38,967 nucleotides of DNA from a virus (IMGVR_UViG_3300025635_000008:1-38967), one strand, 5' to 3'; numbered from the stretch's first letter, positions 2,809-38,161 are shown. Notes: generated by a model from the sequence alone, not told the origin. Program-made: numbers and translations.

Positions 2809-2967
2809 ACGGGCGCGTGATGTCCGCCTTGTGGCTTATCTCTAGGCATTGGCCATTATCCCAAGTGCATGACGGGACGGCGTCTCGTATCGTGCTGGAG
2901 GCGGTTAAGAATCTTTCAGCAGTGGAGTTTCGAGACTTACTTACAATATATAAAGGAGATTAATAAA

Positions 2968-18705: not shown

Positions 18706-19008
18706 TTACCCCTTTTTGCCCGTCTCGACAAGCAAAGCATGAATCTCTCTCAAGACATTGCTCAAGTCGCCTCGAATGTCATTCATGGATTTTGTCGTCA
18801 ATGATTGATTGGCTTCGATCAATAGAAACTTGGAATAATTCCGATCCTCGATTTTCTTAAGCTCTGATAGCGTCTTAAAGATATTTTCTAGCTTCCTATC
18901 AATAGCCGTCTGCTTCATGCCGATGATGGTTTGTTTCCATTCAGACAAATTTTGCTTTGATATGTCCCTCACAAAGAAACTCTTAAATTCCCGATATAGA
19001 CGTTTCAT
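18706..19008 (-). CDS. Coiled-coil hypothetical protein
   Basis: Start at MKRLY by ATGA coupling. Confidence 0.6.
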   Translation of the reverse strand: MKRLYREFKSFFVRDISKQNLSEWKQTIIGMKQTAIDRKLENIFKTLSELKKIEDRNYSKFLLIEANQSLTTKSMNDIRGDLSNVLREIHALLVETGKKG

Positions 19009-19310
19009 TTTTTGAGAATCACCAGCCCCAAAAGAGCGGTAATGACTGATCCGACAACGATCCTCGATATCCATTTCTTAGAATCACGATAATCCTCAAT
19101 GCCACATTTTAGGTCGGGCATTATAATTGAATGTTGCATGAGGACTTTCTCAATCTCATCAATTCTTTTCCCCATCCCCTGATTAAATTGAGTAAAGCTC
19201 TTATCAAGCGATGCAATGGTCGCATTGAGAGAATCAATTTTAGAAATCATGTTGACGCGAAACTCAACCTGATCCGTGGCTTTTTTTATTTCTTCTTCCG
19301 ATGGTGTCAT
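19005..19310 (-). CDS. Holin-like protein (coiled coil plus C-terminal TM)
   Basis: WISRIVVGSVITALLGLVILKK C-terminal TM; upstream of the putative endolysin. Confidence 0.55.
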   Translation of the reverse strand: MTPSEEEIKKATDQVEFRVNMISKIDSLNATIASLDKSFTQFNQGMGKRIDEIEKVLMQHSIIMPDLKCGIEDYRDSKKWISRIVVGSVITALLGLVILKK

Positions 19311-19379: not shown

Positions 19380-19720
19380 TCATATCTCCAACTGCCCGAA
19401 CTGATTGCGTCAACCTCTGAATCAGTAAATCCAAGTCCGATAAACTTTGCTTTTATTCCGTCGGAGAATGATTTCTTGGCGTTCTCTGCGTCAATCTTTT
19501 CTTGCTCTTTGGCGTCCTTTTCTTCTTGGGGAATCTCATAAAGAAAGTGATCCTTCAAATCCACCTTAACATGATCGCGCGGAACCGTTTTAAGAATCGA
19601 CATATCGATATCAATCAGAACGTCTGGGCGCCCTTTATAATCGGGTACGCTGAATCCTCCTTCGGGATAAACCTCTAAAATCTCTCCGTCGTTTGTGTTG
19701 AAAATCACCATGTTCGACAT
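19376..19720 (-). CDS. Tail-fibre-associated protein (chaperone-like)
   Basis: Position after the fibre genes; C-terminal LGFTDSEVDAI. Confidence 0.55.
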   Translation of the reverse strand: MSNMVIFNTNDGEILEVYPEGGFSVPDYKGRPDVLIDIDMSILKTVPRDHVKVDLKDHFLYEIPQEEKDAKEQEKIDAENAKKSFSDGIKAKFIGLGFTDSEVDAISSGSWRYD

Positions 19721-20481
19721 TATCTATTCCCTCCAAAAAATGTTAAAGGCGGGCCGTTGCTTGATCCTACGGTTCCAGCTGCAACCCCAATACTGCCATT
19801 GCCAGTTAAATCCTGCACAAGTGCCGTGTCACTCGATCCGCGCCCATAATAGGCAGAGAAAACCAGCATCGTTGACGATGGGACTATAAACTGTTCAGCC
19901 ATCTCCGCTGGTGTCAGAGCACCTTTATAAATTCCAACCCAAGCAATTTGACCAGGAAATGCACCAACCGAGCCGTCGCGGTTCCCGACGGTTAGCGGGT
20001 TCGGCGCGTCTGAATCAATCGCACCTGCGCCGTCAGTAATGCCCTGATACGTTGCCTCTCGAATAGGGGCCGTTGACCCTATTGCGTAATAGATATTTGC
20101 GATGTTATTAACGGAACCCTGACTATTAAACACAAGTCCGACTCTCCACCAGTTATTGAGAGAAATAATTTGATTTGTCGTGTAATCCGTGTCGGTTGTG
20201 ACCCTGTCAACATTGACCTGCAATTGACCGAGGCTCGTGTTCATGAATATAACTTTTCTGCCAGTGACCGCCGCCCCTTTTCTGATCAGAATTCTATTCA
20301 CGGCCCAAGATGTTGGATAAATCCATGCCAGCCATGTAAATGGGTCGAGATCATCAACGACTGACTGAGAGCCGTGATTAACAACGTCGGTTGTGGCTGT
20401 GCCGAAGGTTAAACTCGAAGCTGACCAAGCAATTCGATTGGCTAAAATAATCGCAAGAATAACAGTCAATATTTTCGTCAT
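19720..20481 (-). CDS. LamG/concanavalin A-like domain protein with a signal peptide
   Basis: FTWLAWIYP, NNWWRVGLVF, LTVGNR, FPGQIAWVGIYKGALT; hydrophobic N-terminus ending AWS. Confidence 0.8.
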   Translation of the reverse strand: MTKILTVILAIILANRIAWSASSLTFGTATTDVVNHGSQSVVDDLDPFTWLAWIYPTSWAVNRILIRKGAAVTGRKVIFMNTSLGQLQVNVDRVTTDTDYTTNQIISLNNWWRVGLVFNSQGSVNNIANIYYAIGSTAPIREATYQGITDGAGAIDSDAPNPLTVGNRDGSVGAFPGQIAWVGIYKGALTPAEMAEQFIVPSSTMLVFSAYYGRGSSDTALVQDLTGNGSIGVAAGTVGSSNGPPLTFFGGNR

Positions 20482-22451
20482 GGTTCCTTCTTGTAAACCA
20501 TCGGAATCTGGATCATCAGATTCATCATGTACAAATCTCCGCTTAAATTTGTAGTTCCTAAAATTGCCGTGTCATTTCCTCTGCCAATTTCAAAAAATAC
20601 CTGCTCGTATGCTTGCCAGTTTAGGGCTGACATTGATTGAGTCCAAGAACAGGTATTGAATGTTCCTGTCGATCCTATAAGTAAGCACGTCTGCGCTCCT
20701 GTAGAATTTGCGTAATTGTAAACGCCGGCTCCATTCGCAAACGTGGCTGTGGAATTAAATAAAATGGTCACATTTTTATTCGGACCAGCCGTCTTCGGGA
20801 TAACCGTCGTCATAAAGAGCACATTTGAGCTGACATCCACGTCCTCGGGGAGTATAAATTTCCCATGAACCGTTTCAGTCAAAGTCCCGTCAAATGCCCT
20901 CACAAGCATTGGCACAAGGGAAAGCCCATATGGAGAGGCATAGGATGCCGTTGATTCTATCGTCGCAAATCCAGTTGATAACGCATGAAGTGACGCCATA
21001 TCAAAATTAAGGGCGTAGACACCTGAATACGTGGAGAAACGGATAACGCTTGTCAGCGCGTCTGTGGTGGATCTAAAGTTTTGGAATGTGGTAATTTGTG
21101 AATCCGTCGTTGACCTGAAATTTACAAATGTATTGCCTCTTGCGTCCGATGTAGAGGTGAATCCGGCGTAGAAGTTTTGAATATTTGTCGTAGATGTTTT
21201 GATCGCCGTGATCGTTGAATTGATATGGTTGAACGTCGTGTCAGTTGTGGAGCGGAAATTCACAAAAGTGTTCCCGCGCGCATCTGAAGTGGAAGTGAAG
21301 CCAGCATAAAACGCCTGAATGTTTGATGTCGATGTCCCAACGGCTTGAGTGGTTGACGTGAAGTTTGTAAACGCTGTCCATGTTGACGAGATTAGAGCAT
21401 TCGCCTGATCTGTAGTTATCCCACTCCCAGACGCTGACACGGCTTTCCCAAAACCAATGATGACATTCGATCCATTAACTTGAGTCGCTATTAATCTATC
21501 GCCAACGGATGCTCCACCAGTTGCAAAGACAGCTGTGTAATTCTGGAACGTAATCGAACTTTGCCTAACCTCAATCCCACTCGCAGATATAGATGAAACT
21601 CCTGCCATGTAAAGTCCGGCGTTATTCCCGCGCACCGTTATAGAACCGCCAACAACATCAATCATAGATGTGGGGTTTGTGCTACCTATGACCATCCCAG
21701 GGGAAGGGCTAAAGGTAGGACTTTGTACCGAGTTTAATAAAAAGAAATCCCCAGCTTTTATGTAATAACCATTTCTCCCAGTTGTCACACTATTAAGCTC
21801 CAATAGTGAATATTGTTGATTTACTCTTCCTTCCTTTATGTAAAGCATCGGTGCATAATCAGTATTAGATTCAAAATTGTTATAAATTCTGACGTTGCTT
21901 GATATGCCAACGTGCTTGTCAAATATAGCATCACCCAAAAAAGTCGTTGAACTTGCAAACGTCGGGCTTCCCGTCACAGTCCATGTCGCTTCCCTCTGAA
22001 TGTAAGAGGTGTCACCATTTGGTAATGGAATTCCAGATGATCCTCCAGTTACAAGTCCCTGAGCCGTAATAGAGGAATAATCAATATCAATATAGGCCGT
22101 AGCATTATTTACAAGATTAACCTTAAAAGGGCCATTTGCAAAACTGATAATAGAAGTCGGACTAGATATGATTGTAACTGACTGCAATGTCCCTGTGCCT
22201 ACCGCTAAAGATGAAGCCCCTCCTCCACCCAAAGCCAAGGCGGCTGTAGCTTGTGCAATATTATTTACCTGAGATTTAAGAGAAGTAAAGGATGAATCAA
22301 TAATGTCAAAGTTAGAATTGAGCTTGTCACCAGCAGGACGAGAACTGACTTGTCCTGTCGTAGGTTTAAGCAATCCTAATGCCCCTGTCGTAATAGTATC
22401 AGACCAAACATTCGTAGGTAGAAGAAGTAGAGCTAGGAGCCATTTTTTCAT
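20478..22451 (-). CDS. Tail fibre/spike protein with a signal peptide
   Basis: TTGALGLLKPTTG...LNSNFDIID fibre anchor motif, IGSTNPTSMIDVVGG repeat, Ser/Thr repeats; leader MKKWLLALLLLPTNVWS. Confidence 0.75.
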   Translation of the reverse strand: MKKWLLALLLLPTNVWSDTITTGALGLLKPTTGQVSSRPAGDKLNSNFDIIDSSFTSLKSQVNNIAQATAALALGGGGASSLAVGTGTLQSVTIISSPTSIISFANGPFKVNLVNNATAYIDIDYSSITAQGLVTGGSSGIPLPNGDTSYIQREATWTVTGSPTFASSTTFLGDAIFDKHVGISSNVRIYNNFESNTDYAPMLYIKEGRVNQQYSLLELNSVTTGRNGYYIKAGDFFLLNSVQSPTFSPSPGMVIGSTNPTSMIDVVGGSITVRGNNAGLYMAGVSSISASGIEVRQSSITFQNYTAVFATGGASVGDRLIATQVNGSNVIIGFGKAVSASGSGITTDQANALISSTWTAFTNFTSTTQAVGTSTSNIQAFYAGFTSTSDARGNTFVNFRSTTDTTFNHINSTITAIKTSTTNIQNFYAGFTSTSDARGNTFVNFRSTTDSQITTFQNFRSTTDALTSVIRFSTYSGVYALNFDMASLHALSTGFATIESTASYASPYGLSLVPMLVRAFDGTLTETVHGKFILPEDVDVSSNVLFMTTVIPKTAGPNKNVTILFNSTATFANGAGVYNYANSTGAQTCLLIGSTGTFNTCSWTQSMSALNWQAYEQVFFEIGRGNDTAILGTTNLSGDLYMMNLMIQIPMVYKKEP

Positions 22452-23923
22452 TGTTTTTTGCCTTTGTTACGCATATTGTCAATAGTTTCAGATAATTTTA
22501 GTCTTGTTGCTTGTTTAATTACTGGACTTACCACATTAGTTGTTTGCTCAACAACAGGAGATCGTAAACCTCTTGCTGCACCTAGAGTAAATCTATTCCC
22601 AAGAAGAAACCGGACAGCAGCATTTTTAACATTCCCAAATTTTGCACCAGTATCAGACACTTGCGGTAAAAGTGATGTTTGTACACTTTGAAGAAAATGA
22701 TTACGATTAATAAGTTTGGAAACTTCAGGAGCAGTTTCACTCAACATTTGTCTAAGACCATTCGCAAAAGCTGCCCTAGCTTCGGTTCCAGGAGCTATAT
22801 CGTTCGTTGCTTTTAGATAATTTTTATTAACCTCGGCATCTAGTTGTCCTAATAGATCATAGGCATCCGATTTACTGATAACACTCCTACCTGGAGCAAT
22901 ATCGGACATTAACCGTCTAATTGTTCTGGCTTGACTTTTTTGACCAATAGAGGACTGTTCTTTAGCTAAAGGAGCTAAGTTATTTCTTATTTTGTCTAAA
23001 TCAATCCCTGAACCTTCTTGTAACTGTGAAATTCTAATAGGTTCTCCAAGTTTTCCTGTCCTATAAGTTCCAACATCCCCAACCATAGCGCTTTCGTCAG
23101 CTTGTTGAAGTTTACTTCTAATAACAAATCTGTTTTGTTCAAGTTCTTTGCTAATATCGTCATAAACTTGATTTTTGCTTTGTCCCGCTCCATACTTTGT
23201 CCTTTCAAGAAATTGCTCACTAAGAGATGTTTTCCCATCTCTACGAAGATTCTCGGAAATAGAAGAAGGGGTATTAAGATAATCAGTAGCTATGGCTTTA
23301 GGTAAATCTTTTGTTAATGCTTCACCAACTTTCCCTGCTCCATATCCAATAGCTCCAAGAACTCCACCACCCATAGCCCCAGATGCCATATTTGAAGCTG
23401 TCTCTAATGGCGGCTTATTCTCTACTCCACCTTTAGCCGCTTCATATGTTGCCATTGTCAATCCAGCTTTTGCCATTGCCGCTTTAACTGCTCCAAGTCC
23501 AAATCTTGAAACCAATAAACTAGCAGGAGTACCAGAAACCATTTCAGATATTACAAGAGGAACTACTGATCCTGCCATCTCTCCAATTTTTTCTGGAGCT
23601 AAGTATTTATCTGCAAAAGTCTTTTCCTTACCCTGCTCATTGAAAATGCTCCCTTCCATTGCCTGTTCTTCAGGAGTCTTTTTCTCAAGCAGTCCCATAG
23701 TAGCTCCACGAACAATTCCTCTCCCAAGTTTTTGATTAGTATCAAGCATTTGAGAACCTACTGCTTTCATAGAAGGAAGAACTGCCTTTGCATAAGAAGA
23801 CAATGACGGTTCTTGACTCGGAGTTAAATCTAATCCTAAGCCCCTCTTTGGTTCTGTTTGTGTAGGACTTGAATTAGACGAAGAATTTGTGTTAATGTCT
23901 GATAAGTCTAATCCAAGACTCAT
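22448..23923 (-). CDS. Putative DNA ejection (internal virion) protein
   Basis: Helical, with Gly/Ala-rich hydrophobic segments; third of three genes after the nozzle. Confidence 0.6.
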   Translation of the reverse strand: MSLGLDLSDINTNSSSNSSPTQTEPKRGLGLDLTPSQEPSLSSYAKAVLPSMKAVGSQMLDTNQKLGRGIVRGATMGLLEKKTPEEQAMEGSIFNEQGKEKTFADKYLAPEKIGEMAGSVVPLVISEMVSGTPASLLVSRFGLGAVKAAMAKAGLTMATYEAAKGGVENKPPLETASNMASGAMGGGVLGAIGYGAGKVGEALTKDLPKAIATDYLNTPSSISENLRRDGKTSLSEQFLERTKYGAGQSKNQVYDDISKELEQNRFVIRSKLQQADESAMVGDVGTYRTGKLGEPIRISQLQEGSGIDLDKIRNNLAPLAKEQSSIGQKSQARTIRRLMSDIAPGRSVISKSDAYDLLGQLDAEVNKNYLKATNDIAPGTEARAAFANGLRQMLSETAPEVSKLINRNHFLQSVQTSLLPQVSDTGAKFGNVKNAAVRFLLGNRFTLGAARGLRSPVVEQTTNVVSPVIKQATRLKLSETIDNMRNKGKKQ

Positions 23924-25068
23924 TGTTTCATCCTTCTTTTAATTTCAGCCAATTTCTGATCTGGGGTTCCCTGTAACGAGTCTATAAAGTTCAACTCTTC
24001 AGGAGATGATTGGCTTCTTAATTTATCTAATTCTTTTTGACCTTCATTCTCATATTGATATGGATTAAATGGCTTTAAGGTTCCAGTTATAAGAGATGGA
24101 TCAATTTGATATTTTGTCGAAAGAGTTTCATATTCATTCCGTAGATTGTTGAATGTATTACCTCTTTCATTTCCAATAATTTTTGCTCCCGTAACTAATG
24201 CTAAACGGTCTTCATTGGTCATACCAGCACCACCTTGACCTACCTTTTCAAGTGCGCCAGCAATTCTATTTACCATCGGAAGATTCTCTGGGGTTCTAGC
24301 ATATTCGGATTCCCTAACAACAGATTGAGGATCAGTCAATTTATTAAACATTGTTATCAATGCCTGATCCAAAGCAAGTTGATTCTGTTTGTTTCCTTGT
24401 AATGCATTCTTAAGCAAAGAATCCATTGATTTAATTGATGTGTTCACAGTCACAAAATCTTTAACTTCAGGACGATTTATAAATTCTTGTCTAAGCCTGC
24501 TGGCAACAGTAACATCTCCGCCACCTGATCCTTCTCCAATCAAAGTAGTCGTATCACCTGTTCCAGGAGTTGAAGGAATTTCTTGTAAAATCTTCCCAGT
24601 CTTCCTATCAACAAATCTATGTACTCCGGATTTCATTGGATTTAACTGTCTTTCTCTCAAATTCTTCTCAATCTCGGACATCTCTTTAGCTTGATCCAAA
24701 GTTCCTGTCCCCATAGCTTCACGAGCGGCATAAATCTTATCCTGCTCGGCTCTTTGTTCAGGAGTAGTGTTCTCGTCAATTCTCATTGTCTGAGGATTCA
24801 AAGGCATCGTTAAATCACGCATAGGCGTCTGCCCTTGAAGCTTTTCATTTATGTCTGCCTTTAACTTTTGTCTTTCTAAATTAGCCTTCTTGATCGCTAG
24901 GACATTATTGATGGTATTGCTTACAATATCTCCAACTCCACCAATTAATTTAACACCTTGATTAAATCTATCAGCAGTAGTTGTCCCTGGTTCTTCTCCA
25001 CCACTATTATAAAAAGACTGTTTTCTAATAAGTTCAGAAAGTGTATCTACATTTGGATAATTAGGCAT
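23920..25068 (-). CDS. Putative DNA ejection protein
   Basis: Synteny; DQALITMFNKLTDPQSVVRESEY motif. Confidence 0.6.
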   Translation of the reverse strand: MPNYPNVDTLSELIRKQSFYNSGGEEPGTTTADRFNQGVKLIGGVGDIVSNTINNVLAIKKANLERQKLKADINEKLQGQTPMRDLTMPLNPQTMRIDENTTPEQRAEQDKIYAAREAMGTGTLDQAKEMSEIEKNLRERQLNPMKSGVHRFVDRKTGKILQEIPSTPGTGDTTTLIGEGSGGGDVTVASRLRQEFINRPEVKDFVTVNTSIKSMDSLLKNALQGNKQNQLALDQALITMFNKLTDPQSVVRESEYARTPENLPMVNRIAGALEKVGQGGAGMTNEDRLALVTGAKIIGNERGNTFNNLRNEYETLSTKYQIDPSLITGTLKPFNPYQYENEGQKELDKLRSQSSPEELNFIDSLQGTPDQKLAEIKRRMKQ

Positions 25069-25077
25069 ATATTCTCC

Positions 25078-26040
25078 TTAATCAGCACTCCCGAAATATC
25101 CGCCAAGGCCACCTACCAATGCACCGCCAGCGGCTCCGATCCCTGTCCCGATCCCTGGGACAATACTTCCTAATAATGCTCCGCTAGCTGCCCCTGATAA
25201 TGCTCCTCCAGATGCTCCTGCTATCCCATTATTCTTTCTTCTGCTTCCCTGCAATCTTCCAAGTAATGCAGATAAAGATAACTGCCTCTGTGCCAAATCC
25301 ATCTGATCGGAATAGGCGTTTTTATTGAAAGCCAGATTTTGATTGAATTGATTCCTAGCGTCAGCGGCATTTTGCTTAGAAAAATCAAGGCTCTGATTGA
25401 ATTTATTCAAATCCAAAGTCCCTGAAGCTTTTTGACCCAGTATATTTCCTATTACAGAACTTAACGAGTTTGCTTCATTAACGTCTACCTGTCCGATTGT
25501 AGAAGAAGGATCAGCGGATACTCCTGACCGTAACCGACCCAATGCCGCTTCCTCCTCAACAGCCCTAGCTCTTAATGGAGCGAAGTTGCGGGAATTCGCC
25601 TCAATAGCGTTCTTTTGAAGCGGATCAAAAAGAGCATTGATTTGCTCAGCTGTAGCTCCCAAGTCAGTCGGTTGAGAATTAGCGGCAACTATCTCTGGAT
25701 TGCTCTCAATATACATATTCGACAAAGCATTCATTTTGTCAGCATTTAGTGTTCCAGTAATAAATTGTTTTGCATTGGAAGTATCTGCATTGAAAGCCAC
25801 AAATTGTTTAACTTGATCAACAGTTGGGACTTTTCCTGTTTTCTTGTAATAATTATCTACAAAAGAAGAACTTAACCCTCTGATAAAATCTTGAGTGGTT
25901 TCATACCTACCGTTATCATTAGCGGGTTGACCAAGACCAACATAAGCTTGATTGATAAGACCTTCATAATCTTGCGGTGACGCAATATCCACCCCAAGAC
26001 CGTAATTTGGAATTAAACTACTTAAAGGTTGTTCTGCCAT
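25078..26040 (-). CDS. Putative DNA ejection/pilot protein with a glycine zipper
   Basis: Q/N-rich helices and C-terminal GGALSGAASGALLGS...GLGG. Confidence 0.65.
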   Translation of the reverse strand: MAEQPLSSLIPNYGLGVDIASPQDYEGLINQAYVGLGQPANDNGRYETTQDFIRGLSSSFVDNYYKKTGKVPTVDQVKQFVAFNADTSNAKQFITGTLNADKMNALSNMYIESNPEIVAANSQPTDLGATAEQINALFDPLQKNAIEANSRNFAPLRARAVEEEAALGRLRSGVSADPSSTIGQVDVNEANSLSSVIGNILGQKASGTLDLNKFNQSLDFSKQNAADARNQFNQNLAFNKNAYSDQMDLAQRQLSLSALLGRLQGSRRKNNGIAGASGGALSGAASGALLGSIVPGIGTGIGAAGGALVGGLGGYFGSAD

Positions 26041-26052
26041 AAATTATCTCCT

Positions 26053-26331
26053 CTACCTTCTAATGGTCACGCAAGACCCGCTAACTGCATAAATTTCCTG
26101 ATTATATCGCCATCCAAAAGAATTGTATGTTCCTGAACTAATCAAAAATATCTGCTTATCTTTAACATCTGATAAGTTTGGCGTGGAAACAAATACAATG
26201 TTCTCCTGATCTTGAACTGTGTTTTCTAAATTTGAAAACTCGTCCTGAGTATTCCTAGGATCAATATAATCAGTATGAATACGAGTAAATCCAAATAAAG
26301 GCAAAACTAAAAATATCCATATCTTTCTCAC
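26053..26331 (-). CDS. Small tail-associated protein with a hydrophobic leader
   Basis: MRKIWIFLVLPLFGF; coupled to the nozzle gene. Confidence 0.6.
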   Translation of the reverse strand: MRKIWIFLVLPLFGFTRIHTDYIDPRNTQDEFSNLENTVQDQENIVFVSTPNLSDVKDKQIFLISSGTYNSFGWRYNQEIYAVSGSCVTIRR

Positions 26332-28667
26332 TTCGGCTCCAATATCGCTGTAGGACTATAAAGAACAGATAAATTGTTAATAACAAATGGTTGATCCAAA
26401 AGAGAATGAGAAAGTCTTATCCTTAAAGTCTTTGCAGGAGCTGTCACACCCTTAATAGAATTTAATGATCTGCCGGAACCAATCAAAGGTATGCTCTTAT
26501 TTGAGAATGAACCAAAATCTATGGAACTTCCAACATTTAGAGTTAAAGCGGACCCCTTATCTGCATCCAATAAATAGGACTGAATATTCTTTGATGTGAA
26601 ATTGCTTCCTAGTATCATGTCAGGAGTTTCATATATAAATGGAATAGCGGCTCCATCGAAGTTCGTCCCATAATCCAATCTATAGACTGATCCAGTACTT
26701 GAAGATCCGCCATAAAGAACATTCCCATCCTTTGCAAAAGATCGGATATTTATCCCCTCAATAGGCATAAAAGCATTAGGGTTTTCATTCGTAACCTTTG
26801 ACTTAACATAAATAAGACTAAATATATTCCCGCCATCAGTAGAAGTCGCAAGCCAATACCTGTTTTTCCAGTCTATGCCAAAAGCTCTACTAAAAGAACC
26901 TGCTCCTTCAACGTGATTTATAGTTAAATAGTCAATGTTAGAAACGCTTTGAGTCATAGAAGATACGGACGTTATTGTGGTAGTCCATTGAATATAATTA
27001 TTTATTATAGGAGCATTGATTATGGCCCCTGGGCCAATAGCATTCCATGTCTGAGTTGCAATATTAACTGCACTAGTTGATGTTCGATAAAAATAAGATA
27101 TTTCACCACCATTTGTACTATTTAAAGAATCCAGACTAGACCATGAAGTAATATTTGATGAAACTGTTGTTATTTCAGAAATAAATGATCCCGTAGTCGT
27201 TGGCTTAAAGAACCAATTTCCTAAATCTTCCTGTAAAGAAGCGGCTCTCCCACATGAAATTACATCACCTATATTTTTTAATGCCCACCTGAATCCTAAA
27301 CTTCCACCATCAACAACAAAATGATCAAATAATATCTTTGCTTCATAAGGTTTTACACTTTCCAAATCTATAATAGCCTCTTCCCCTGTATAGAAATTTT
27401 TAATACTCATATTGATTGCTGTCCCGTTACAAGGCAAAGCTAAATCACTAATAAACATTTTATCTCCTGGAGCAAACACATCATCCGTCGGAATATAATC
27501 AGGAGGAGTAACGGCAATACGAATATAAGTCGAAGCATCATTTGTTATGCTTGTAGATGGGGTGGATGGATAAACTGAGCTAAGTACAGCTGAAAATGGT
27601 TGAGATGCTCCACCTTGGAATTTTCTGACATTATTGAAGAACTTCCCCTTACTTAGAGGCTTTAAAAATCCAGATGCTGTCGCAGTCGTCCCAAATAATT
27701 GACCTTTTGTAAAATCTGATTGTGTGTCCCAAATATTTTGCACATTCTTCTGAACTCCTCGGCTAATATTCTCAATATCATCTTCAATTAAATCAGATAT
27801 CCTTTGCTCATCCTTGTATATCCCGTCATAACTTAAATAATATGTACTGTCATCAAGATTAACAACAGAATCATTTGAAATCACGCCAACGGAATTAGAT
27901 ATATCTTTACGAGCGAAATAGTTAGAAACATTCGTTCCATAGATCGTGTACTTTGACCGTTCTTTTCCTGCCTTCAATTGACCATTTCTAACCCATAATG
28001 CTGTCCCAATCTCACCGTCTCCTTGACCTATTTTCAATGAATTAGTTACAGGCCAAGCTCTTGAATCAGTAGGATCAATAATTACAGCATCTGTGGTAAC
28101 AACTGAACTGAACGCTAGTTCTGAAGCGAGTGAAGGGTTGTTAAATCCCCATACACGCTCCTGCCAATATTGTGCATACTTGAACTTTGGGACATTTGGA
28201 GTATTATCATTCCCATTAAGAATAGATCTATTTATCCCGTCCCATGTCTTAACAAAATCCAATCCATTATATCCCCACATTTTGTTCCTAACCTGAATCC
28301 AATTTAATGGGCTTCCAGTATTTGAGTTTGAACTTACTAAAACCCATGTTTGAAAATCAGATGTTTCAAGTGTAACGCTTGAATCTGTAACTAAAAAAGT
28401 TGTATTCCCATTTTCACGCCTAAATGGAAAAATTCCAGTAACCTTACTTAGTGTTAAAGTTGTGCCAACTGTCTGATATCCATTTATGCCTTCAATTCTG
28501 CCTTGATCAATAAATACATTCCTCATATAAGGAGAGTATTTTGAGCTTATCCTCCATGTCGGGTCCGCCGTATTCAATCCTCCCAACGGAGTCTGAATCT
28601 CTTCTACTGCTAGAGGATCAGCATGAGCCGTACCGACAAGGAATAGAAGAAGCAATAGTTTTTTCAT
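26328..28667 (-). CDS. Tail nozzle / DNA stabilisation protein (P22 gp10 / T7 gp12-like) with a signal peptide
   Basis: GGLNT...SPYMRNV start, beta-propeller-like body, YETPD near the C-terminus, synteny; leader MKKLLLLLFLVGTAHA-DP. Confidence 0.75.
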   Translation of the reverse strand: MKKLLLLLFLVGTAHADPLAVEEIQTPLGGLNTADPTWRISSKYSPYMRNVFIDQGRIEGINGYQTVGTTLTLSKVTGIFPFRRENGNTTFLVTDSSVTLETSDFQTWVLVSSNSNTGSPLNWIQVRNKMWGYNGLDFVKTWDGINRSILNGNDNTPNVPKFKYAQYWQERVWGFNNPSLASELAFSSVVTTDAVIIDPTDSRAWPVTNSLKIGQGDGEIGTALWVRNGQLKAGKERSKYTIYGTNVSNYFARKDISNSVGVISNDSVVNLDDSTYYLSYDGIYKDEQRISDLIEDDIENISRGVQKNVQNIWDTQSDFTKGQLFGTTATASGFLKPLSKGKFFNNVRKFQGGASQPFSAVLSSVYPSTPSTSITNDASTYIRIAVTPPDYIPTDDVFAPGDKMFISDLALPCNGTAINMSIKNFYTGEEAIIDLESVKPYEAKILFDHFVVDGGSLGFRWALKNIGDVISCGRAASLQEDLGNWFFKPTTTGSFISEITTVSSNITSWSSLDSLNSTNGGEISYFYRTSTSAVNIATQTWNAIGPGAIINAPIINNYIQWTTTITSVSSMTQSVSNIDYLTINHVEGAGSFSRAFGIDWKNRYWLATSTDGGNIFSLIYVKSKVTNENPNAFMPIEGINIRSFAKDGNVLYGGSSSTGSVYRLDYGTNFDGAAIPFIYETPDMILGSNFTSKNIQSYLLDADKGSALTLNVGSSIDFGSFSNKSIPLIGSGRSLNSIKGVTAPAKTLRIRLSHSLLDQPFVINNLSVLYSPTAILEPK

Positions 28668-28930
28668 TAGTGAGACAAATCGTAAAATTGACGCAAACGG
28701 AAATGACTCATTCCCCCATAGGGGGTTGTCCCGTACGTGCTATCTACTCCTCCGTATATATCATCCACGCCATAAGCTGATTCAGCAGTATTATCTCCAC
28801 CCCAAACATTCGTCCCCTTATTGAAAGCTTTTTTAGAAAAAGAATTAGAACAAGTATTAAAGGACTGGTCAGTAAATCCTGTCCCTTTGTTAAAATTCTT
28901 CTTAGAAAACTGATTAGATGATATTTTCAA
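28667..28930 (-). CDS. Small virion-associated protein with an internal repeat
   Basis: SNxFSKKxFNKGT twice and YG repeats. Confidence 0.55.
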   Translation of the reverse strand: MKISSNQFSKKNFNKGTGFTDQSFNTCSNSFSKKAFNKGTNVWGGDNTAESAYGVDDIYGGVDSTYGTTPYGGMSHFRLRQFYDLSH

Positions 28931-29640
28931 AACGAAAACCTCAATCCGCTGCCATTATCGTCGTTTGGATCAAAACCGCCACCCCAAGAAAAACCAAAAG
29001 AATTAGTTTCCTTTATAATTAACGGCTCCAATTTCTTAGCCTTATCCATCATTTGAGATAGGATTGCCGTGGCTAATTCTGGTTTATTTAATTTTGAAAG
29101 ACAGCACATATAGTGTCCATAATCAGCCAATAAATCATGGTAAACAATAGGCAAATCGGGAGTGTCCGAGTCATTTGTAAGGATTGCGGGCTGATAAACA
29201 TATCCAATATGGAGTTTCTTTCCACTAGCACCTTCCGCAGCGTTGGGTCTAGGAGAAATTAAAACAGTAACTCGGTCAATCAGCACAATCCTAGTTGGTC
29301 GCCCTTGAGAATTAGTAGTTTCATCCATCCAATTAGGATTAGCCTCTTTCAATGCCTCTTCGGTCGTGATTGTCAATGGTCGAACATCACCATTGATTGA
29401 GACATCTCCGAAATAGGCTGTATTAAGGAGAATTGTGTCATTTGGCAGGGTATATGCCGGATAATCCTGTTGAACTTGTATCTCAACATGGTCAATAGGC
29501 TTCTTAACCAATGCGCCCAAGAATCTTTGGCCCTCATTTACAAATCCAGTAAGCTCCTGATCGGTAAAATCAGTATTAGTCGTATCAGTTTGTGATATTT
29601 TTACTCTAATCAGGCTCTTTATCTGGCCTAGGTTTGACAT
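28927..29640 (-). CDS. Head-tail adaptor (tail tubular protein A-like)
   Basis: FTDQELTGFVNEGQR, YTLPND, GRP, DTPDLPIVYHDLL. Confidence 0.75.
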   Translation of the reverse strand: MSNLGQIKSLIRVKISQTDTTNTDFTDQELTGFVNEGQRFLGALVKKPIDHVEIQVQQDYPAYTLPNDTILLNTAYFGDVSINGDVRPLTITTEEALKEANPNWMDETTNSQGRPTRIVLIDRVTVLISPRPNAAEGASGKKLHIGYVYQPAILTNDSDTPDLPIVYHDLLADYGHYMCCLSKLNKPELATAILSQMMDKAKKLEPLIIKETNSFGFSWGGGFDPNDDNGSGLRFSF

Positions 29641-30014
29641 TAGGCCACCGCCTCCAACTCCTTCAATTCATTCTTTAACCTTTTCTTATCCGCCTCTTCT
29701 AAATGACGTTCAAATTCCTTATATTTGGCATGAGCTTTAGAATAAAGGACAAGCGCATCTGCCCTTTTACGCTGTTCAAACTCCATAGCGTCAGCCTTAA
29801 TCTTCTCCATAGCTGAAACTGTCTGATTCAAAAGTTCCTCGGCCTTACGATTCTTTTCCTCCAACTCAAGATTAGCCGCTTTAAGTTGTCCCCTTTGTGT
29901 TTTCCACATATTGACGGAAAGATGTCCGCTCTCAAACATCTTATTGAAGTCGTCCATAAACTCCTTAAATTTCCTAATCTTTAAATCCATCGTTTGCATT
30001 GTGATTTCTTCCAT
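29640..30014 (-). CDS. Coiled-coil hypothetical protein
   Basis: K/E-rich heptads; AAGGAG SD. Confidence 0.65.
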   Translation of the reverse strand: MEEITMQTMDLKIRKFKEFMDDFNKMFESGHLSVNMWKTQRGQLKAANLELEEKNRKAEELLNQTVSAMEKIKADAMEFEQRKRADALVLYSKAHAKYKEFERHLEEADKKRLKNELKELEAVA

Positions 30015-30025
30015 ATTTTCTCCTT

Positions 30026-30310
30026 TTAAGACTGATATTGAGGCCAGCGTTCCTGAATCTTCCCATTATCTCCACGGCGGCCTACATAATATCCGCCGTC
30101 AGGTTTACTGTAAGGTAGAATGACTCGCCTTTCCATCTCGTTCAACTGTCTTTCAGTCGCCCAAGTCTTTCCAATTTTTACTTTTTTGTTTAACAAAACG
30201 CCATGAACATTATGCTCCTGATAGGATCGGCAATTTGAACATAACCAAAGACCCTTCTCACATCGAAGCTTGTAATGTTTGTCTGTCTTGCAGTTATCGC
30301 AAATCAACAT
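30026..30310 (-). CDS. Zn-ribbon protein
   Basis: CDNC...CSNC. Confidence 0.6.
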   Translation of the reverse strand: MLICDNCKTDKHYKLRCEKGLWLCSNCRSYQEHNVHGVLLNKKVKIGKTWATERQLNEMERRVILPYSKPDGGYYVGRRGDNGKIQERWPQYQS

Positions 30311-30339
30311 AAAATCGTGAGGGGCTTTTCACCCCTCCC
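30311..30339 (-). terminator. Probable intrinsic terminator after the capsid genes
   Basis: gagggg-tgaaaag-cccctc followed by a short T run. Confidence 0.55.
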
Positions 30340-30346
30340 GAAACCT

Positions 30347-30814
30347 TTAACGCTCTTGGTTATAAAGAGTCATAATGCTATTGTAACCACCAACACTTGG
30401 ACGGGTAATCAAGCCTTCACTAAACCGAATAGGTTTAGGGGGACCAGAAAAACCTGCCGCAAACTGAGAAGTTCCAGCAGAGGAGATTTGCACGTTATAC
30501 AAACGCATAATCGCTCCCTGGAGCTTGCCAGTATCCGCACTAGTGCTGTCAAACACATCAACAAAGTCAACGGTGTTACCAGAGCTGAAAAAAACTCCGT
30601 AAAACACTCCGCGACAAGTGAAGTTTGCAGAATTAATGCAAGCGGTCGAAAAAGAACCCGCCAATGGGAAGTTGTTGGTCGAATAAGTAACGCCGCCATA
30701 ATCAGCCGTAGCTAACGCTCGGTCAGGGCCAACGGGAATGTCCCGAAGGGAACCTGCATGAGAAACAAGCGTCATAGAGAGCATAACCAAGGCGGTCAAA
30801 AGAAACTTCTTCAT
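30347..30814 (-). CDS. Putative capsid decoration protein with a signal peptide
   Basis: AAGGAGG SD before ATG 30814; leader MKKFLLTALVMLSMTLVSHA; directly after the capsid gene. Confidence 0.7.
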   Translation of the reverse strand: MKKFLLTALVMLSMTLVSHAGSLRDIPVGPDRALATADYGGVTYSTNNFPLAGSFSTACINSANFTCRGVFYGVFFSSGNTVDFVDVFDSTSADTGKLQGAIMRLYNVQISSAGTSQFAAGFSGPPKPIRFSEGLITRPSVGGYNSIMTLYNQER

Positions 30815-30827
30815 TTTACGCCTCCTT

Positions 30828-31691
30828 TTATGCAGCACTATTTGCAACTACGAAATGATCAGAACGAATCACCGACAGACCATAAAGGCTCTGCGCGTTG
30901 AAAATCGTTCCCAGAACAAGTCCAGCCAATCCGTCCGCTTTCTTGATTTCCGCGTCTTTCTGCCATGCAATCGCAATCGCACTCTTGTGAACCAAGAGGT
31001 TCTTGTAAACTGCAGGAGATCCGACACGAACAATGTTAGTGGACTGATAAACAGGAACGCCAAACAACGGGAACTGATATCCCGTAGTCAAGACGTTTTT
31101 ATTTTGGCCTGAATCTTGCGCCGCTGTCAGCTGTCCTTCGTTAGTCAATCCCTTGAGATACGCCCTGGGATGAATAATCCAGGACAAGTCTTCCAAAGGA
31201 ACATTTGCATTAGCGAGATCCAACATAGCCTCTTGGAATAGAGCTTTGCTAAATTCCTCAGGATTGTTAGGATCGCCAACGGTATTACCAGCCGCCACGC
31301 CCGTATAAAGCGCAGCCAACTGAGCATCGTAACGAGAACCAAAGGCTTCACCAACTTTCCTAGGGAAGATCGAATCGGGAGTCCAAAAAGACTGAGCAAC
31401 GGCTCTGTCCAACTCCACGATCGTAATTTGTTCCCATTGGTTCAATGTGATCGGAACAGAAGTAGGAGTATAGTTCTGCGCGGCAACAACGCCAGCAGCA
31501 GAAACTGTCCCAACGGTATACTTCTGGTCAACGGTCACATTGATAATGTCACCCTTTTTCTGAGCGAGACCTGATTTATTAGAAACGCGATTGCCAATAA
31601 CCATCTTGGCATAACGTGCCTCTTCAACCTTCTCGTCCCAAAGTTCTCTAACAGTAGCGTTTAAGGCTGTATTATCGAATTCATTTGCCAT
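30828..31691 (-). CDS. Major capsid protein (HK97 fold)
   Basis: ELWDEKV, KKGDIINV, ITLNQW, IIHP, LFGVPVYQS, HKSAIAIA, SLYG; follows the scaffold gene. Confidence 0.88.
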   Translation of the reverse strand: MANEFDNTALNATVRELWDEKVEEARYAKMVIGNRVSNKSGLAQKKGDIINVTVDQKYTVGTVSAAGVVAAQNYTPTSVPITLNQWEQITIVELDRAVAQSFWTPDSIFPRKVGEAFGSRYDAQLAALYTGVAAGNTVGDPNNPEEFSKALFQEAMLDLANANVPLEDLSWIIHPRAYLKGLTNEGQLTAAQDSGQNKNVLTTGYQFPLFGVPVYQSTNIVRVGSPAVYKNLLVHKSAIAIAWQKDAEIKKADGLAGLVLGTIFNAQSLYGLSVIRSDHFVVANSAA

Positions 31692-31719
31692 AAAATTTCC
31701 TTAACTTATTGCTATTCCC

Positions 31720-32583
31720 TTATTCTTTTGCAAGCGAGTCCATTTGCCTCATAAGAGATTCTCTGCGCTCTTTGTGTTTAGCATCGAAACGCAAAGCAGG
31801 ATTCCTATCAATCTCTGCTGTAAGCTTTTTATAATCGGACATCAGATTTTCAAAAGACACTTTACCTGCGCCTGGATTTCCTCTCGCCGTGGAACCCATC
31901 AATGCTTTAGGAATCACATTGGGACTCGACTGAGGTTTGATTTTGTTAATTTTCTCCAAAAGGAACTCTGCGGCTGCTTTTGGATCAATTGACGAAAACC
32001 TATCCAAACTTGGATTCTCTCTCAATACTTGCTGAATTAAATCAGCACGTTCTTGATTTTTAATCCTTTCTTCAAGCGTTTCTTTTGAATCTGGGCTTGA
32101 TTTTGGGAATAACACTTCCAACGCCTCTCGCTCTAATTTCGTACGCTCAGCGTTCACTTCTTTGGACTTTAACTGATTAAGTTCTTCTTTAAGAGAGTTA
32201 AACTCTTGTAAGAGTCTTTGCTCTCTCGATTGAAAAACTTTCTCAGGGTCATTTAAAAGTTCTTCCGCTGTGAGTTTCTGAATATTTGAAACATCAGGCT
32301 TAGGATTCTTAAGTTCCTGATATAGCCGACGCATTTCCGCAAGTTCTTGAGCTTGTCTTTGAGAATTTTCTTCAATCCTTCGGACACGCTCTCTTTCCTT
32401 GTAGAAACTTGACACCTTCGGCCTCTGTGTTTCAACTGCTTGAGGTGGGTTGACATTCGCCTCGACCTGGGGAACGACGGACGATTGAGTCTCAGCGGGG
32501 GCTTGCGCCTGTGGCTGAGAATCCTGCGGCGCGATTTCATTCGCGTTACCCACTTCCGTAGGGGCAGTTAGTATTTCTTCCAT
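31720..32583 (-). CDS. Capsid scaffolding protein
   Basis: Disordered P/Q/E-rich N-terminus and coiled coil, directly upstream of the capsid gene. Confidence 0.7.
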   Translation of the reverse strand: MEEILTAPTEVGNANEIAPQDSQPQAQAPAETQSSVVPQVEANVNPPQAVETQRPKVSSFYKERERVRRIEENSQRQAQELAEMRRLYQELKNPKPDVSNIQKLTAEELLNDPEKVFQSREQRLLQEFNSLKEELNQLKSKEVNAERTKLEREALEVLFPKSSPDSKETLEERIKNQERADLIQQVLRENPSLDRFSSIDPKAAAEFLLEKINKIKPQSSPNVIPKALMGSTARGNPGAGKVSFENLMSDYKKLTAEIDRNPALRFDAKHKERRESLMRQMDSLAKE

Positions 32584-32585
32584 GA

Positions 32586-33359
32586 TTACTCCTTTGAGCC
32601 TATTAGGGCCTCGTTCCCGTTAAGAACAGGAACGGTATTTTTTCCAAATTTGAATAAAACATTTTCTGTTTTCTGATGCTTCTTAAAATTAGGGATATCA
32701 TGAACCGTATACTCATAATTGCCGATATGTCCCAAAATAATAGTCGTATCAGCGTAAATCTCATATCCTAATTGCATTGCGTTCCTGCAAAAAAACCAAT
32801 CTTCGGAAGTATCATTCCATTGACCAGTAAAAACGTCTCTCTGCTGGAAATAACTCCAATATTTATAGTCTCCATGAACACAATCATGAATACCGATTGA
32901 TTCCGAATTTGCTTTCATCTTTTCAAATACTTCTCTTCTGATAGCCATGCAACCTGTAGAAAGATTTTTCATCTTAACTATTCCGCCATTCTTACCAAAA
33001 ATAATCTCTCCATTATCTTGAAACGGCTGAGCGGCTAATCCTGGGTTAGATTGACTTTTGGTAGCGTAAATACCGCCTATGATTGGATATTCCTTGTAAC
33101 ATAGCCAAGCTAACTTTGTAGCATCTACACTAGAAATAATAATATCGTCGTCTAAGAAAAGAAGCACATCTGCATCTGTTTTGTCCGTAAAGTAAGTCGC
33201 AACCCGACTTCTCGACCTAGAAATAAGACCGTCTTGATCAACAGAGATTTCGCTAATTTCAGGGTTAGGGCATTTATAGAGCATCCGAAGGTTCTGGTGA
33301 ACCCTCATTCGGATTTCTCTATGCGTGCAAATTCCTAATCCGACCTTGAAATCAGGCAT
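32586..33359 (-). CDS. GT-A fold (family 2-like) glycosyltransferase
   Basis: LLFLDDD, TGCMAIRREVFEK, SEDWFFC, ADTTIILGHIG. Confidence 0.85.
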   Translation of the reverse strand: MPDFKVGLGICTHREIRMRVHQNLRMLYKCPNPEISEISVDQDGLISRSRSRVATYFTDKTDADVLLFLDDDIIISSVDATKLAWLCYKEYPIIGGIYATKSQSNPGLAAQPFQDNGEIIFGKNGGIVKMKNLSTGCMAIRREVFEKMKANSESIGIHDCVHGDYKYWSYFQQRDVFTGQWNDTSEDWFFCRNAMQLGYEIYADTTIILGHIGNYEYTVHDIPNFKKHQKTENVLFKFGKNTVPVLNGNEALIGSKE

Positions 33360-33790
33360 TATCTATTTTGTCCTGAAGATTTAAGACCAGGGCAAGCTCC
33401 AACGTTATTGTTATTGGGGCATCGAATCCAATAGATCAACTTTGAAGGCCCAACCTTATTGATATAGGTATAAGAAGTGTTCAACATATCATAGAGTGGA
33501 ATATAGTTTGTAGTCATTATTGATTGGGCATCTGTGGCAATAGCTATTTGAGTCGTAATGTCCGCAGTGAATGTCGCGGACGTTGACCTAAAAATTGCAA
33601 CATAAGAATTAGCAGAAGCAGAAGATACTGTTATAGCAACAAATTGAATAGGGCCAGAAGAAAACAGTACAGCCCCTCCAGACGCTACTTCCGTATAAGA
33701 TGATCTTGGTATATAATTCCATTCAGGGAGTCCGCTTGCATGAAGAACTCCTCCCATTAAAAAACTTAAAGCAAAAATAATCTTCTTCAT
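33359..33790 (-). CDS. Signal-peptide protein, distant paralog of 30347..30814
   Basis: Leader MKKIIFALSFLMGGVLHA; VSSASANSYVAIFRSTSA versus FSSGNTVDFVDVFDSTSA. Confidence 0.7.
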   Translation of the reverse strand: MKKIIFALSFLMGGVLHASGLPEWNYIPRSSYTEVASGGAVLFSSGPIQFVAITVSSASANSYVAIFRSTSATFTADITTQIAIATDAQSIMTTNYIPLYDMLNTSYTYINKVGPSKLIYWIRCPNNNNVGACPGLKSSGQNR

Positions 33791-34041: not shown

Positions 34042-34390
34042 TTTTATTCTCCTTTGGTACTTCTCTTAGTTTTTCAAGTTTAAGTTTAATCTTGTTTTCC
34101 AATTCTAAAAAATGGTCAAATCCAACCAACTTCGCCACTTCTACTTTCGTCTGAATATCATCTACCTTATTGATTGATACGCTTAACTTCATAAATGCTT
34201 CTAACTTAATACGCTCAGACTCTAAATACTTCTTAAATATCTCCCATCCGCCATTCTCATAAGGAATTCCGCATTTATTACAATGAAATTTCCCAGAAAA
34301 CATCTCCTCAACTCTGGCTAAATCAGAAATATCGTTTTTCTCAAAAACAATATTGGGAAGTCCGTTCTTTAGGTTTCTATCAATCTTCAT
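34013..34390 (-). CDS. Hypothetical protein after the portal
   Basis: ATGA coupling; CNKC insert and GWEIFKKYL. Confidence 0.65.
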   Translation of the reverse strand: MKIDRNLKNGLPNIVFEKNDISDLARVEEMFSGKFHCNKCGIPYENGGWEIFKKYLESERIKLEAFMKLSVSINKVDDIQTKVEVAKLVGFDHFLELENKIKLKLEKLREVPKENKNDEPNPYGD

Positions 34391-38086: not shown

Positions 38087-38161
38087 ATAAATTGTGGGGC
38101 AAAGCACCAGACCTTAGATTAGTTTAAGTTGCTTCTAGTCTCTGCCCCTTACAAAAGGAAA

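What the first reader, a model, noticed from the sequence alone, without database searches (positions are those of the whole stretch)
19720..33790. Virion morphogenesis proteins carry Sec-type signal peptides, suggesting export and extracytoplasmic assembly of tail and decoration parts
Seen: N-terminal leaders with a basic n-region, hydrophobic h-region and small-residue cleavage site on the tail nozzle (26328-28667, MKKLLLLLFLVGTAHA-D), tail fibre (20478-22451, MKKWLLALLLLPTNVWS-D), LamG protein (19720-20481), the gene right after the capsid (30347-30814, ...VSHA-G) and 33359-33790 (...VLHA-S), with a weaker case at 26053-26331. Portal, capsid, scaffold, adaptor and ejection proteins have none. 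In the nozzle and fibre, the usual structural N-terminal motifs (GGLN; TT..LGL.KP) start just after the predicted cleavage site. Established: P22 gp10 and T7 gp12 nozzles and fibres assemble in the cytoplasm without leaders. Inference: outer virion parts are exported to the periplasm and joined to filled heads at the membrane, at lysis or during an unusual egress, or are held apart until lysis.
Basis: partly seen in the sequence, partly recalled or inferred. Interest (0 to 1): 0.9.

Follow-up and report, generated by a model that had tools for sequence, protein, structure and literature searches.

The report
Phage tail built from exported parts
This uncultured short-tailed phage and its relatives start the tail nozzle and other predicted outer virion proteins with secretion-type leader sequences that the capsid, portal and adaptor lack, so the outer tail is likely made outside the cytoplasm and would join the DNA-filled head at lysis, a route I found described for no tailed phage.

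Summary
Confirmed. The window is a complete podovirus. Six late genes carry Sec-type leaders; terminase, portal, scaffold, capsid, adaptor and ejection proteins do not. 26328-28667 is a nozzle: Z 32 to Pa223, and residue 2 of the Pa223, P22, T7 and SU10 nozzles aligns to its residues 18-20, just after the predicted cut. 119 of 176 homologues keep a full leader; eight leaderless ones form one clade and start where the cut falls. Relatives form an outside-in series: no leaders; post-capsid gene and fibres only; plus nozzle and next gene (this phage); plus adaptor. Exported proteins have even cysteine counts (63 of 86, against 42 of 128) and excess hydrophobic-Ser-Ser/Thr motifs. Cultured phi18:3 has three MS-annotated virion proteins with leaders. 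Likely mechanism: Sec export, periplasmic folding, joining to heads after the holin opens the membrane (inferred). No SignalP run, no wet evidence; host uncertain (possibly Elusimicrobiota). The scan found this before on other DNA (22 findings).

The parts
36279..37661 (-). Terminase large subunit, no leader
   Evidence: Pfam Terminase_6N E 1.9e-8
34387..36282 (-). Portal, no leader
   Evidence: PHROG 332 E 1.4e-15 and PHROG 156 portal E 0.003; position
33359..33790 (-). 143-aa protein with leader (predicted cut VLHA|S), Cys124/Cys133; presumed outer virion protein, fold not tested
   Evidence: 50% identical leader-bearing homologue in L033; a leader-bearing gene lies between portal and scaffold in 17 of 17 relatives tabulated, picked by position
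32586..33359 (-). Glycosyltransferase-like protein, cytoplasmic, inside the head module
   Evidence: PHROG 34859 E 0.0013, Pfam Glycos_transf_2 E 0.083; homologues in L005, L006, L007, L031, L033, L037, L067, L068
31720..32583 (-). Probable scaffold, no leader
   Evidence: position and conservation
30828..31691 (-). Major capsid protein, no leader
   Evidence: PHROG 267 E 2.3e-16
30347..30814 (-). 155-aa post-capsid protein with leader (VSHA|G), Cys59/Cys67; predicted jelly roll, candidate cement or decoration protein
   Evidence: KHP40 cement Z 7.0, rmsd 4.4, 104 aligned: inconclusive; leader in 17 of 17 relatives tabulated
28927..29640 (-). Head-tail adaptor, no leader
   Evidence: Pfam SU10_adaptor E 1e-15
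28667..28930 (-). 87-aa leaderless gene between adaptor and nozzle, its stop overlapping the nozzle start; function unknown
   Evidence: homologues or same-position genes
26328..28667 (-). Tail nozzle with 16-residue leader (TAHA|D), Cys413/Cys472 in an inserted domain
   Evidence: Pa223 Z 32.0, rmsd 2.5, 446 aligned; leaders in homologues
26053..26331 (-). 92-aa post-nozzle protein with leader, at the position of the P22 needle gene (gene order recalled); leader state follows the nozzle's
22448..26040 (-). Three probable ejection proteins (320, 382, 491 aa), no leaders
   Evidence: position, Gly-zipper hit
20478..22451 (-). 657-aa probable tail fibre with leader (NVWS|D), Cys589/Cys601
   Evidence: N-terminal motif shared with 10 related leader-bearing proteins; no family hit
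19720..20481 (-). LamG/concanavalin-like protein with leader; probable receptor-binding part
   Evidence: Pfam Laminin_G_3 E 3.5e-9, residues 30-193
19005..19310 (-). Holin-like protein, one C-terminal transmembrane segment
   Evidence: PHROG 689 holin E 0.0048, Pfam XhlA E 0.0003, both weak
18266..18703 (-). DUF5675 protein, putative leaderless endolysin (function recalled)
   Evidence: Pfam DUF5675 E 1e-23
17671..17937 (-). Lipoprotein with lipobox, candidate spanin (untested)
14708..16342 (+). GT-C-fold membrane glycosyltransferase-like protein; accessory, not found in five relatives

Best explanation
This podovirus carries secretion-type leaders on its nozzle and five other predicted outer virion proteins, which are likely exported by Sec, cleaved by signal peptidase I and folded in the periplasm, and would join the cytoplasmic DNA-filled head only once the holin opens the inner membrane at lysis.

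Shown from sequence and models: the leaders; their absence from head, adaptor and ejection proteins; nozzle identity; the cut site's match to the natural start of leaderless nozzles; co-variation of nozzle and post-nozzle leaders; the outside-in series across relatives.

Inferred strongly (about 0.85): export, cleavage and disulfide formation.

Inferred moderately: an O-linked modification at hydrophobic-Ser-Ser/Thr sites by a host periplasmic enzyme.

Inferred weakly: where and when the parts join, and how the head holds its DNA until then. The likely gain is access to periplasmic folding chemistry (disulfides, glycans). Hiding nozzle and adaptor from cytoplasmic sensors is a possible second gain.
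For: (1) Nozzle fold. The top 26 VIA matches are all podophage or crAss tail chains. Residue 2 of the Pa223, P22 gp10, T7 gp12, SU10 and crAss001 chains aligns to model residues 18-20 (Foldseek).

(2) Conservation. Of 176 homologues of 700 aa or more with an aligned N-terminus, 119 have a full leader, 28 a hydrophobic partial one, 21 are short gene calls and 8 are truly leaderless (5 of 181 lacked the N-terminus). In 5 of 5 truncated calls whose DNA I could read (L068, L035, L029, L028, L034) a leader lies upstream in frame.

(3) Cut site. Anchored on the GGLN motif, with no cut-site prediction, position -17 is A/G/S in 87% of 97 rule-flagged clade-A leaders, leaving 16 residues. All 8 leaderless sisters have Met exactly 16 residues before the motif.

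(4) Series. In 17 tabulated relatives, portal 0 of 16, scaffold, capsid and adaptor 0 of 17 each, post-capsid gene 17 of 17, nozzle 6 of 17; the post-nozzle gene is leaderless in all 11 with leaderless nozzles. L015, L024 (two copies) and L041 add leaders to SU10_adaptor domains starting at residues 20-25.

(5) Cysteines. Even counts in 63 of 86 cysteine-bearing flagged proteins, against 42 of 128 unflagged; 30 of 32 in leaderless-nozzle phages, against 4 of 8 for their own nozzles. Nozzle columns 123/132 co-occur 28 of 28 and 67/105 29 of 29; the eight leaderless nozzles have no Cys there.

(6) The [VILFA]-S-[ST] motif follows export. Ratio to shuffles: 1.42, 1.47 and 1.74 in leader nozzles; 0.95, 1.15 and 1.19 in leaderless ones; 2.59 against 1.04 in adaptors; 0.99 in T7/SU10 tails.

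(7) Cultured phi18:3 gp085-087 are annotated as structural by MS/MS and carry leaders; 9 other MS-annotated proteins do not.

(8) A holin-like gene and a leaderless putative endolysin are present. Lambda holin makes micron-scale holes, with depolarisation about 19 s before lysis (10.1101/2023.09.08.556860, passages).
Against: No export, cleavage or virion content was measured, and SignalP was not run.

[quoted passage not shown] A 10-20 s window is short for multi-step tail assembly.

Whole-protein cysteine parity is not significant in clade-A nozzles (72 even, 58 odd, p 0.13). The window's own motif excess is small (nozzle 7 against 5.5; LamG 1 against 1.3), and the motif is not enriched in phi18:3 (0.75). 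Homologues are related, so p values are inflated.

N-glycosylation sequons are not enriched (0.92), and the phage's GT-C gene is missing from 5 of 5 relatives searched, three of them under 90% complete. Fibre and decoration identities are inconclusive. Holin hits are below curated cut-offs. The host is not established.
Confidence: 0.6

Rival explanations
1. Parts are exported, but the tail is built on the periplasmic face and the filled head docks across the intact inner membrane before lysis, or leaves by a non-lytic route.
For: It would solve the timing and DNA-sealing problems. The boundary moves ring by ring, as a membrane-spanning interface might.
Against: Nozzle, adaptor and the small module genes have no transmembrane segment beyond the leaders (adaptor N-terminus). 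No secretin or extrusion ATPase was recognised among 29 ORFs scanned. The boundary lies at three different interfaces in different relatives, which one fixed channel would not easily allow. Lysis-type genes are present.
Confidence: 0.13
2. Parts are exported, and final joining happens outside the cell after lysis, in the lysate or on released heads.
For: Same sequence evidence as the best explanation; no time limit.
Against: Dilution after burst should make multi-step assembly inefficient (inference), and unsealed heads would have to last longer.
Confidence: 0.1
3. The leaders are uncleaved or phage-cleaved membrane tethers or pro-peptides that hold parts on the cytoplasmic face, with assembly otherwise ordinary.
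For: It avoids the sealing problem. No cleavage was measured.
Against: The conserved -3/-1 small-residue pattern, the acidic early mature region (net charge of the first 18 residues at most 0 in 115 of 119) and the paired cysteines all point to translocation. Signal peptidase I acts on the periplasmic side (established knowledge).
Confidence: 0.09
4. The leader-bearing proteins are no longer virion parts but secreted decoys or superinfection-exclusion factors.
For: Fibre, LamG and the two small proteins lack firm structural annotation.
Against: The genome has one nozzle match, full-length and in the canonical slot, so the virion has no other. phi18:3 leader-bearing proteins are MS-annotated as structural.
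Confidence: 0.05
5. Start-call artefact or chance hydrophobic N-termini.
For: The nozzle start has no Shine-Dalgarno; my rule gave 2 false calls in 47 phage controls.
Against: Conserved across 119 homologues down to under 30% identity; overlap with upstream stops; no alternative start in four relatives.
Confidence: 0.03

Closest known systems
Podophage tails: Pa223 (9nwi), P22 gp4/gp10/gp26, T7 gp11/gp12, SU10 gp11/gp17, crAss001 muzzle
   Same: Nozzle fold (Z 22-32), SU10-type adaptor, gene order adaptor-nozzle-small gene-ejection genes.
   Different: Their nozzles are resolved from residue 2-3 in virions and have no leader; here a 16-residue leader precedes the same start.
Cellulophaga phage phi18:3 (Pachyviridae) gp085-gp087
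   Same: Cultured phage whose record annotates three leader-bearing proteins as structural by MS/MS.
   Different: No convincing sequence relation to this phage (two weak low-coverage blastp hits); its other nine MS-annotated proteins are leaderless. I found no paper noting the leaders and did not read the original proteomics paper.
Filamentous phages (Ff pIII, pVIII), recalled
   Same: Virion proteins made with Sec-type leaders.
   Different: They stay membrane-anchored and assemble during non-lytic extrusion of ssDNA; here there is a capsid, portal, terminase and lysis-type genes.
Signal-peptide and SAR endolysins of tailed phages, recalled
   Same: Tailed phages using host Sec late in infection.
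   Different: Those are lysis enzymes, not virion parts; this phage's putative endolysin is leaderless.
STAND sensors Avs12 (portal adaptor) and Avs13 (tail nozzle), PMC13581612, passages
   Same: Nozzle and adaptor are intracellular immune triggers, so export would hide them.
   Different: Capsid and portal are also sensed and stay cytoplasmic here; evasion is untested.

Membership tests
Podophage tail nozzle (P22 gp10 / T7 gp12 / SU10 gp17) | Beta-propeller plus terminal beta-sandwich fold over the full length | tested here: met
   pLDDT 86 model; Pa223 Z 32.0, rmsd 2.5, 446 aligned, model range 18-777
Podophage tail nozzle (P22 gp10 / T7 gp12 / SU10 gp17) | Single copy, encoded after the adaptor and before ejection genes | tested here: met
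Podophage tail nozzle (P22 gp10 / T7 gp12 / SU10 gp17) | Hexamer on the adaptor in the mature virion | not testable with these tools
   needs particles
Canonical cytoplasmic podophage assembly pathway | All virion proteins made without export leaders | tested here: not met
   six late proteins flagged; T7 0 of 13
Sec/SPase I signal peptide | Basic n-region and uncharged h-region | tested here: met
   own rule, calibrated; SignalP not available
Sec/SPase I signal peptide | Small residues at -3/-1 at a conserved distance from the mature domain | tested here: met
   nozzle: 87% A/G/S at one motif-anchored position in 97 sequences; other genes by inspection
Sec/SPase I signal peptide | Translocation and cleavage in vivo | not testable with these tools
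   needs fusions or N-terminomics
Lipoprotein (SPase II) or Tat leader | Lipobox Cys or twin-arginine motif | tested here: not met
   no lipobox in the six; no RR motif in their printed N-termini
Capsid cement/decoration protein (30347-30814) | Fold match to a solved cement protein | tested here: inconclusive
   jelly roll; KHP40 cement Z 7.0 tied with nucleoplasmins and XepA, no match at Z 8 or more
Tail fibre (20478-22451) | Particle-binding N-terminal domain of a known fibre family | tested here: inconclusive
   motif shared among relatives; no PHROG, Pfam or phage-record hit at useful E; not folded
Filamentous-phage-type extrusion | Assembly ATPase or secretin, membrane-anchored coat proteins, no capsid or portal | tested here: not met
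   terminase, portal and capsid present; no anchors beyond the leaders

The most novel reading that the evidence does not exclude
A broad group of tailed phages splits virion assembly across the inner membrane. The export boundary slides inward in evolution from fibres and decoration, to nozzle and plug, to the adaptor. The exported parts are disulfide-bonded and glycosylated in the periplasm, hidden from cytoplasmic nozzle and adaptor sensors, and the virion is completed only at or across the membrane, so lysis or egress is itself the last step of morphogenesis.
Probability: 0.45. Interest if true: 0.95.

Novelty: categorically new. Interest (0 to 1): 0.85.

Why it matters
Tailed phages are taken to finish their virions in the cytoplasm before lysis. 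A nozzle made in the periplasm means infectious particles cannot exist until the membrane barrier falls or is crossed. That ties maturation to lysis and implies an unknown way of sealing a filled head. It would give phages disulfide-bonded and possibly glycosylated tails, and could remove nozzle and adaptor from the view of sensors such as Avs12 and Avs13. The graded series gives a comparative handle on how it evolved, and cultured phi18:3 makes the first step testable now.

Tried and rejected
Complex prediction of mature nozzle with adaptor: no verdict, score 0.00, controls not folded; not used either way.

Sequence searches of the nozzle against PDB and cultured phages: nothing useful.

Host by prophage. 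The nozzle scan of GTDB genomes gave no confirmed relative among 58 pattern matches. The portal scan gave 1 of 26, a 13.5-kb contig whose recognised genes are all phage genes, in a Nitrososphaerota MAG; I take it as probably misbinned, given the putative endolysin and lipoprotein genes in this group. Atlas taxa for the nozzle were uninformative. The beta-barrel gene had one relative, unnamed.

Glycosylation motifs. N-x-S/T and the Bacteroidetes D-S/T motif (recalled) are not enriched. Phage GT-C as the core reason for export was rejected: 0 of 5 relatives, though a divergent copy could be missed.

Direction of change is unresolved. The leaderless clade groups with leader clade B at only 68% and the adaptor-leader phages fall outside, so there were at least two gains or a gain and a loss.

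Promoter and terminator scan: at chance level. A dual-start model giving a cytoplasmic form found no conserved internal start.

Literature. Six searches for a precedent (listings and abstract starts only) showed none. Keyword passages of 10.64898/2026.10.24.761521 and PMC12014285 do not describe it. The library lacks most subscription journals. I opened no supplements, and SignalP tables in phage genome papers could hold unremarked cases.


Full report
Context. The window is a whole virus record of 38,967 bases with direct terminal repeats. Its late operon runs on the minus strand: terminase, portal, scaffold, capsid, SU10-type adaptor, a 779-aa gene, three probable ejection genes, a 657-aa probable fibre, a LamG protein, then a holin-like gene, DUF5675 and a lipoprotein.

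The observation. With no SignalP, I wrote an n/h/c rule and calibrated it. It flagged 18 of 19 exported and 0 of 30 cytoplasmic E. coli proteins, 2 of 7 inner-membrane proteins, and 2 of 47 virion-module proteins of T7, SU10 and HTVC111P, both at threshold. Outside that module it also flags the lipoprotein and three non-structural ORFs (4671, 12746, 14708). Starts are backed by ribosome-binding sites or by overlap with the upstream stop, and no conserved internal start exists.

The nozzle. An AlphaFold model from 64 sequences (pLDDT 86) matches podophage nozzles by Foldseek and VIA: Pa223 Z 32.0, SU10 29.3, crAss001 28.4, P22 gp10 27.1, T7 gp12 22. Residue 2 of those solved chains aligns to residues 18-20, so the 16-residue leader is an addition in front of an otherwise normal start.

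Conservation. Two searches gave 200 proteins. I kept the 181 of 700 aa or more and dropped 5 lacking the N-terminus. Of the 176 left, 119 have a full leader, 28 a hydrophobic partial one, 21 are short gene calls and 8 are leaderless. Where DNA was at hand for truncated calls, 5 of 5 had a leader upstream. Counting back from the GGLN motif in 97 flagged clade-A leaders, position -17 is small in 87%, -19 is mostly A/L/V and the h-region lies at -30 to -23. The mature protein thus keeps 16 residues before the motif. The eight leaderless proteins form one clade (support 0.999) and all have Met 16 residues before it. Other leaderless nozzles start 10-16 residues before it.

A graded series. In 17 relatives chosen because their loci covered the module, portal (0 of 16), scaffold, capsid and adaptor (0 of 17 each) are never flagged, while the post-capsid gene and a gene between portal and scaffold always are. 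The latter was picked by position and by having a leader, so that column is partly circular and its members were not shown to be homologous. Six have nozzle leaders, five of them with a flagged post-nozzle gene and the sixth hydrophobic; eleven lack both. Fibre-like genes in the leaderless-nozzle phages keep leaders. Loci left out as partial or duplicate agree where readable, except L075, which has no gene in the post-capsid slot, and L031, whose portal-scaffold candidate was missed at the start I picked. More distant phages L015, L024 and L041 put leaders on the adaptor too, with Pfam SU10_adaptor starting at residues 20-25. L004, L021, L025, L058, L060 and L061 have leaderless nozzles and no flagged gene in the module as far as fetched. 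I saw no phage with an inner part flagged and the parts outside it unflagged. The rooted tree does not fix the direction.

Marks of an oxidising, modifying compartment. Among cysteine-bearing proteins, flagged ones have even counts in 63 of 86 and unflagged ones in 42 of 128 (window plus 22 loci). In eight leaderless-nozzle phages it is 30 of 32 for flagged proteins against 4 of 8 for their nozzles. Nozzle columns 123/132, on the two strands of a hairpin in the model, co-occur 28 of 28; 67/105 co-occur 29 of 29; leaderless nozzles have none of these. Whole-protein parity in clade-A nozzles is not significant. Four of the six window proteins have exactly two cysteines. A hydrophobic-Ser-Ser/Thr motif is 1.6-fold over shuffles in flagged proteins and 1.1-fold in others. 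It follows leader state within nozzles and within adaptors (median 1.38 against 0.83, p 0.008) and is absent from T7/SU10 tails, E. coli exported proteins and phi18:3. I read it as a possible host O-glycosylation site; that is a guess, and the window alone shows only a slight excess. Relatedness inflates all these p values.

Host. A leader-bearing barrel-like gene (weak OmpW hit), a lipoprotein and a putative endolysin suggest a diderm bacterium. The closest named relative of the radical SAM gene is from an Elusimicrobia MAG at 52%, behind six unnamed hits; Omnitrophota and Planctomycetes follow at about 36-42%. This is weak.

Mechanism. I commit to Sec export and SPase I cleavage, periplasmic folding, and joining to cytoplasmic filled heads after holin triggering (0.6 for the whole; about 0.85 for export alone). 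Lambda holin makes micron-scale holes some 10-20 s before lysis (10.1101/2023.09.08.556860, passages), and a leaderless endolysin needs such a hole. Two gaps remain. The window is short, and in P22 the needle is the plug for the capsid contents (10.64898/2026.09.03.749273, passage), so another seal is needed; the 87-aa gene at 28667-28930 is a candidate only by position, and it is also present where the nozzle is cytoplasmic. As to why, the outside-in order and the cysteines fit folding chemistry best. Escape from Avs12 and Avs13, which sense adaptor and nozzle (PMC13581612, passages), is possible but leaves capsid and portal exposed.

Known and new. The parts are ordinary podophage parts; the route is not. 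Six literature searches showed no description (listings only, subscription journals largely missing, no supplements opened). The nearest real precedent is phi18:3: three of twelve proteins annotated as structural by MS/MS carry leaders, a lead from an earlier scan note that I checked. The scan itself has noted nozzle leaders in at least 22 other genomes; these are unchecked notes and not counted as support. What I tested here beyond those notes is the match of the cut site to natural leaderless starts, the leaderless sister clade as an internal control, and the adaptor-level extension.

Verdict: real, conserved and surprising; export is strongly inferred and the place of joining is open. Interest 0.85.

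Noticed in passing
window 16284-16673 (+): Chimeric remnant: a short copy of part of the barrel-like gene at 4671-5315 fused to the C-terminal part of a tyrosine integrase (Pfam Phage_integrase E 3e-10); suggests a lost integration module.
   Followed up: partly
window 13377-16342 (+): Radical SAM gene plus GT-C-fold membrane protein: a host-like surface-modification pair; the GT-C gene was not found in five relatives.
   Followed up: partly
window 32586-33359 (-); L048:16267, L054:15890, L055:15198: A cytoplasmic glycosyltransferase-like gene sits in the head module in close relatives; similar-looking Cys-rich genes lie before the fibres in leaderless-nozzle phages (only L055 matched by blastp). 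Possible capsid glycosylation.
   Followed up: no
window 4671-5315 (+) and 12746-12985 (+): Non-structural genes with leaders; the first has weak OmpW/barrel hits (E 0.03-0.04) and one relative at 78%. Candidate superinfection-exclusion proteins.
   Followed up: partly
window 28667-28930 (-): Small F/S/N-rich gene with Tyr-Gly repeats and an internal repeat, between adaptor and nozzle in both leader and leaderless clades; weak HET-s hit (E 0.006), probably chance.
   Followed up: partly
L068:8851-9028: The nozzle frame has a full leader but no ATG/GTG/TTG before it; an ATT codon is the likely start, which would explain some truncated gene calls.
   Followed up: partly
L024:8436-9841: Two tandem SU10_adaptor genes, both with leaders.
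   Followed up: partly
L015:130-1746: Chaperonin (Cpn60) gene just upstream of the head module of an adaptor-leader phage.
   Followed up: no
L005:3462-3761, L006:160-459, L031:1909-2208, L033:3076-3372: A conserved leaderless 98-99-aa gene lies next to leader-bearing fibre-like genes between portal and scaffold; absent from the window's ORFs at that place.
   Followed up: no
L094:8892-14584 (phi18:3 gp085-087): The leader-bearing virion proteins are depleted in the Bacteroidetes O-glycosylation motif (3 against 9.4, z -2.2; motif recalled), as if avoiding modification in the periplasm.
   Followed up: partly
window 1135-1575 (-), 2869-3915 (+), 37625-38107 (-): RNase H, an LPD29 polyvalent-domain protein and a weak endonuclease VII-like gene.
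   Followed up: no
window 16897-17583 (-): Alpha/beta hydrolase-like gene after the lysis genes (Pfam E 1e-4).
   Followed up: no
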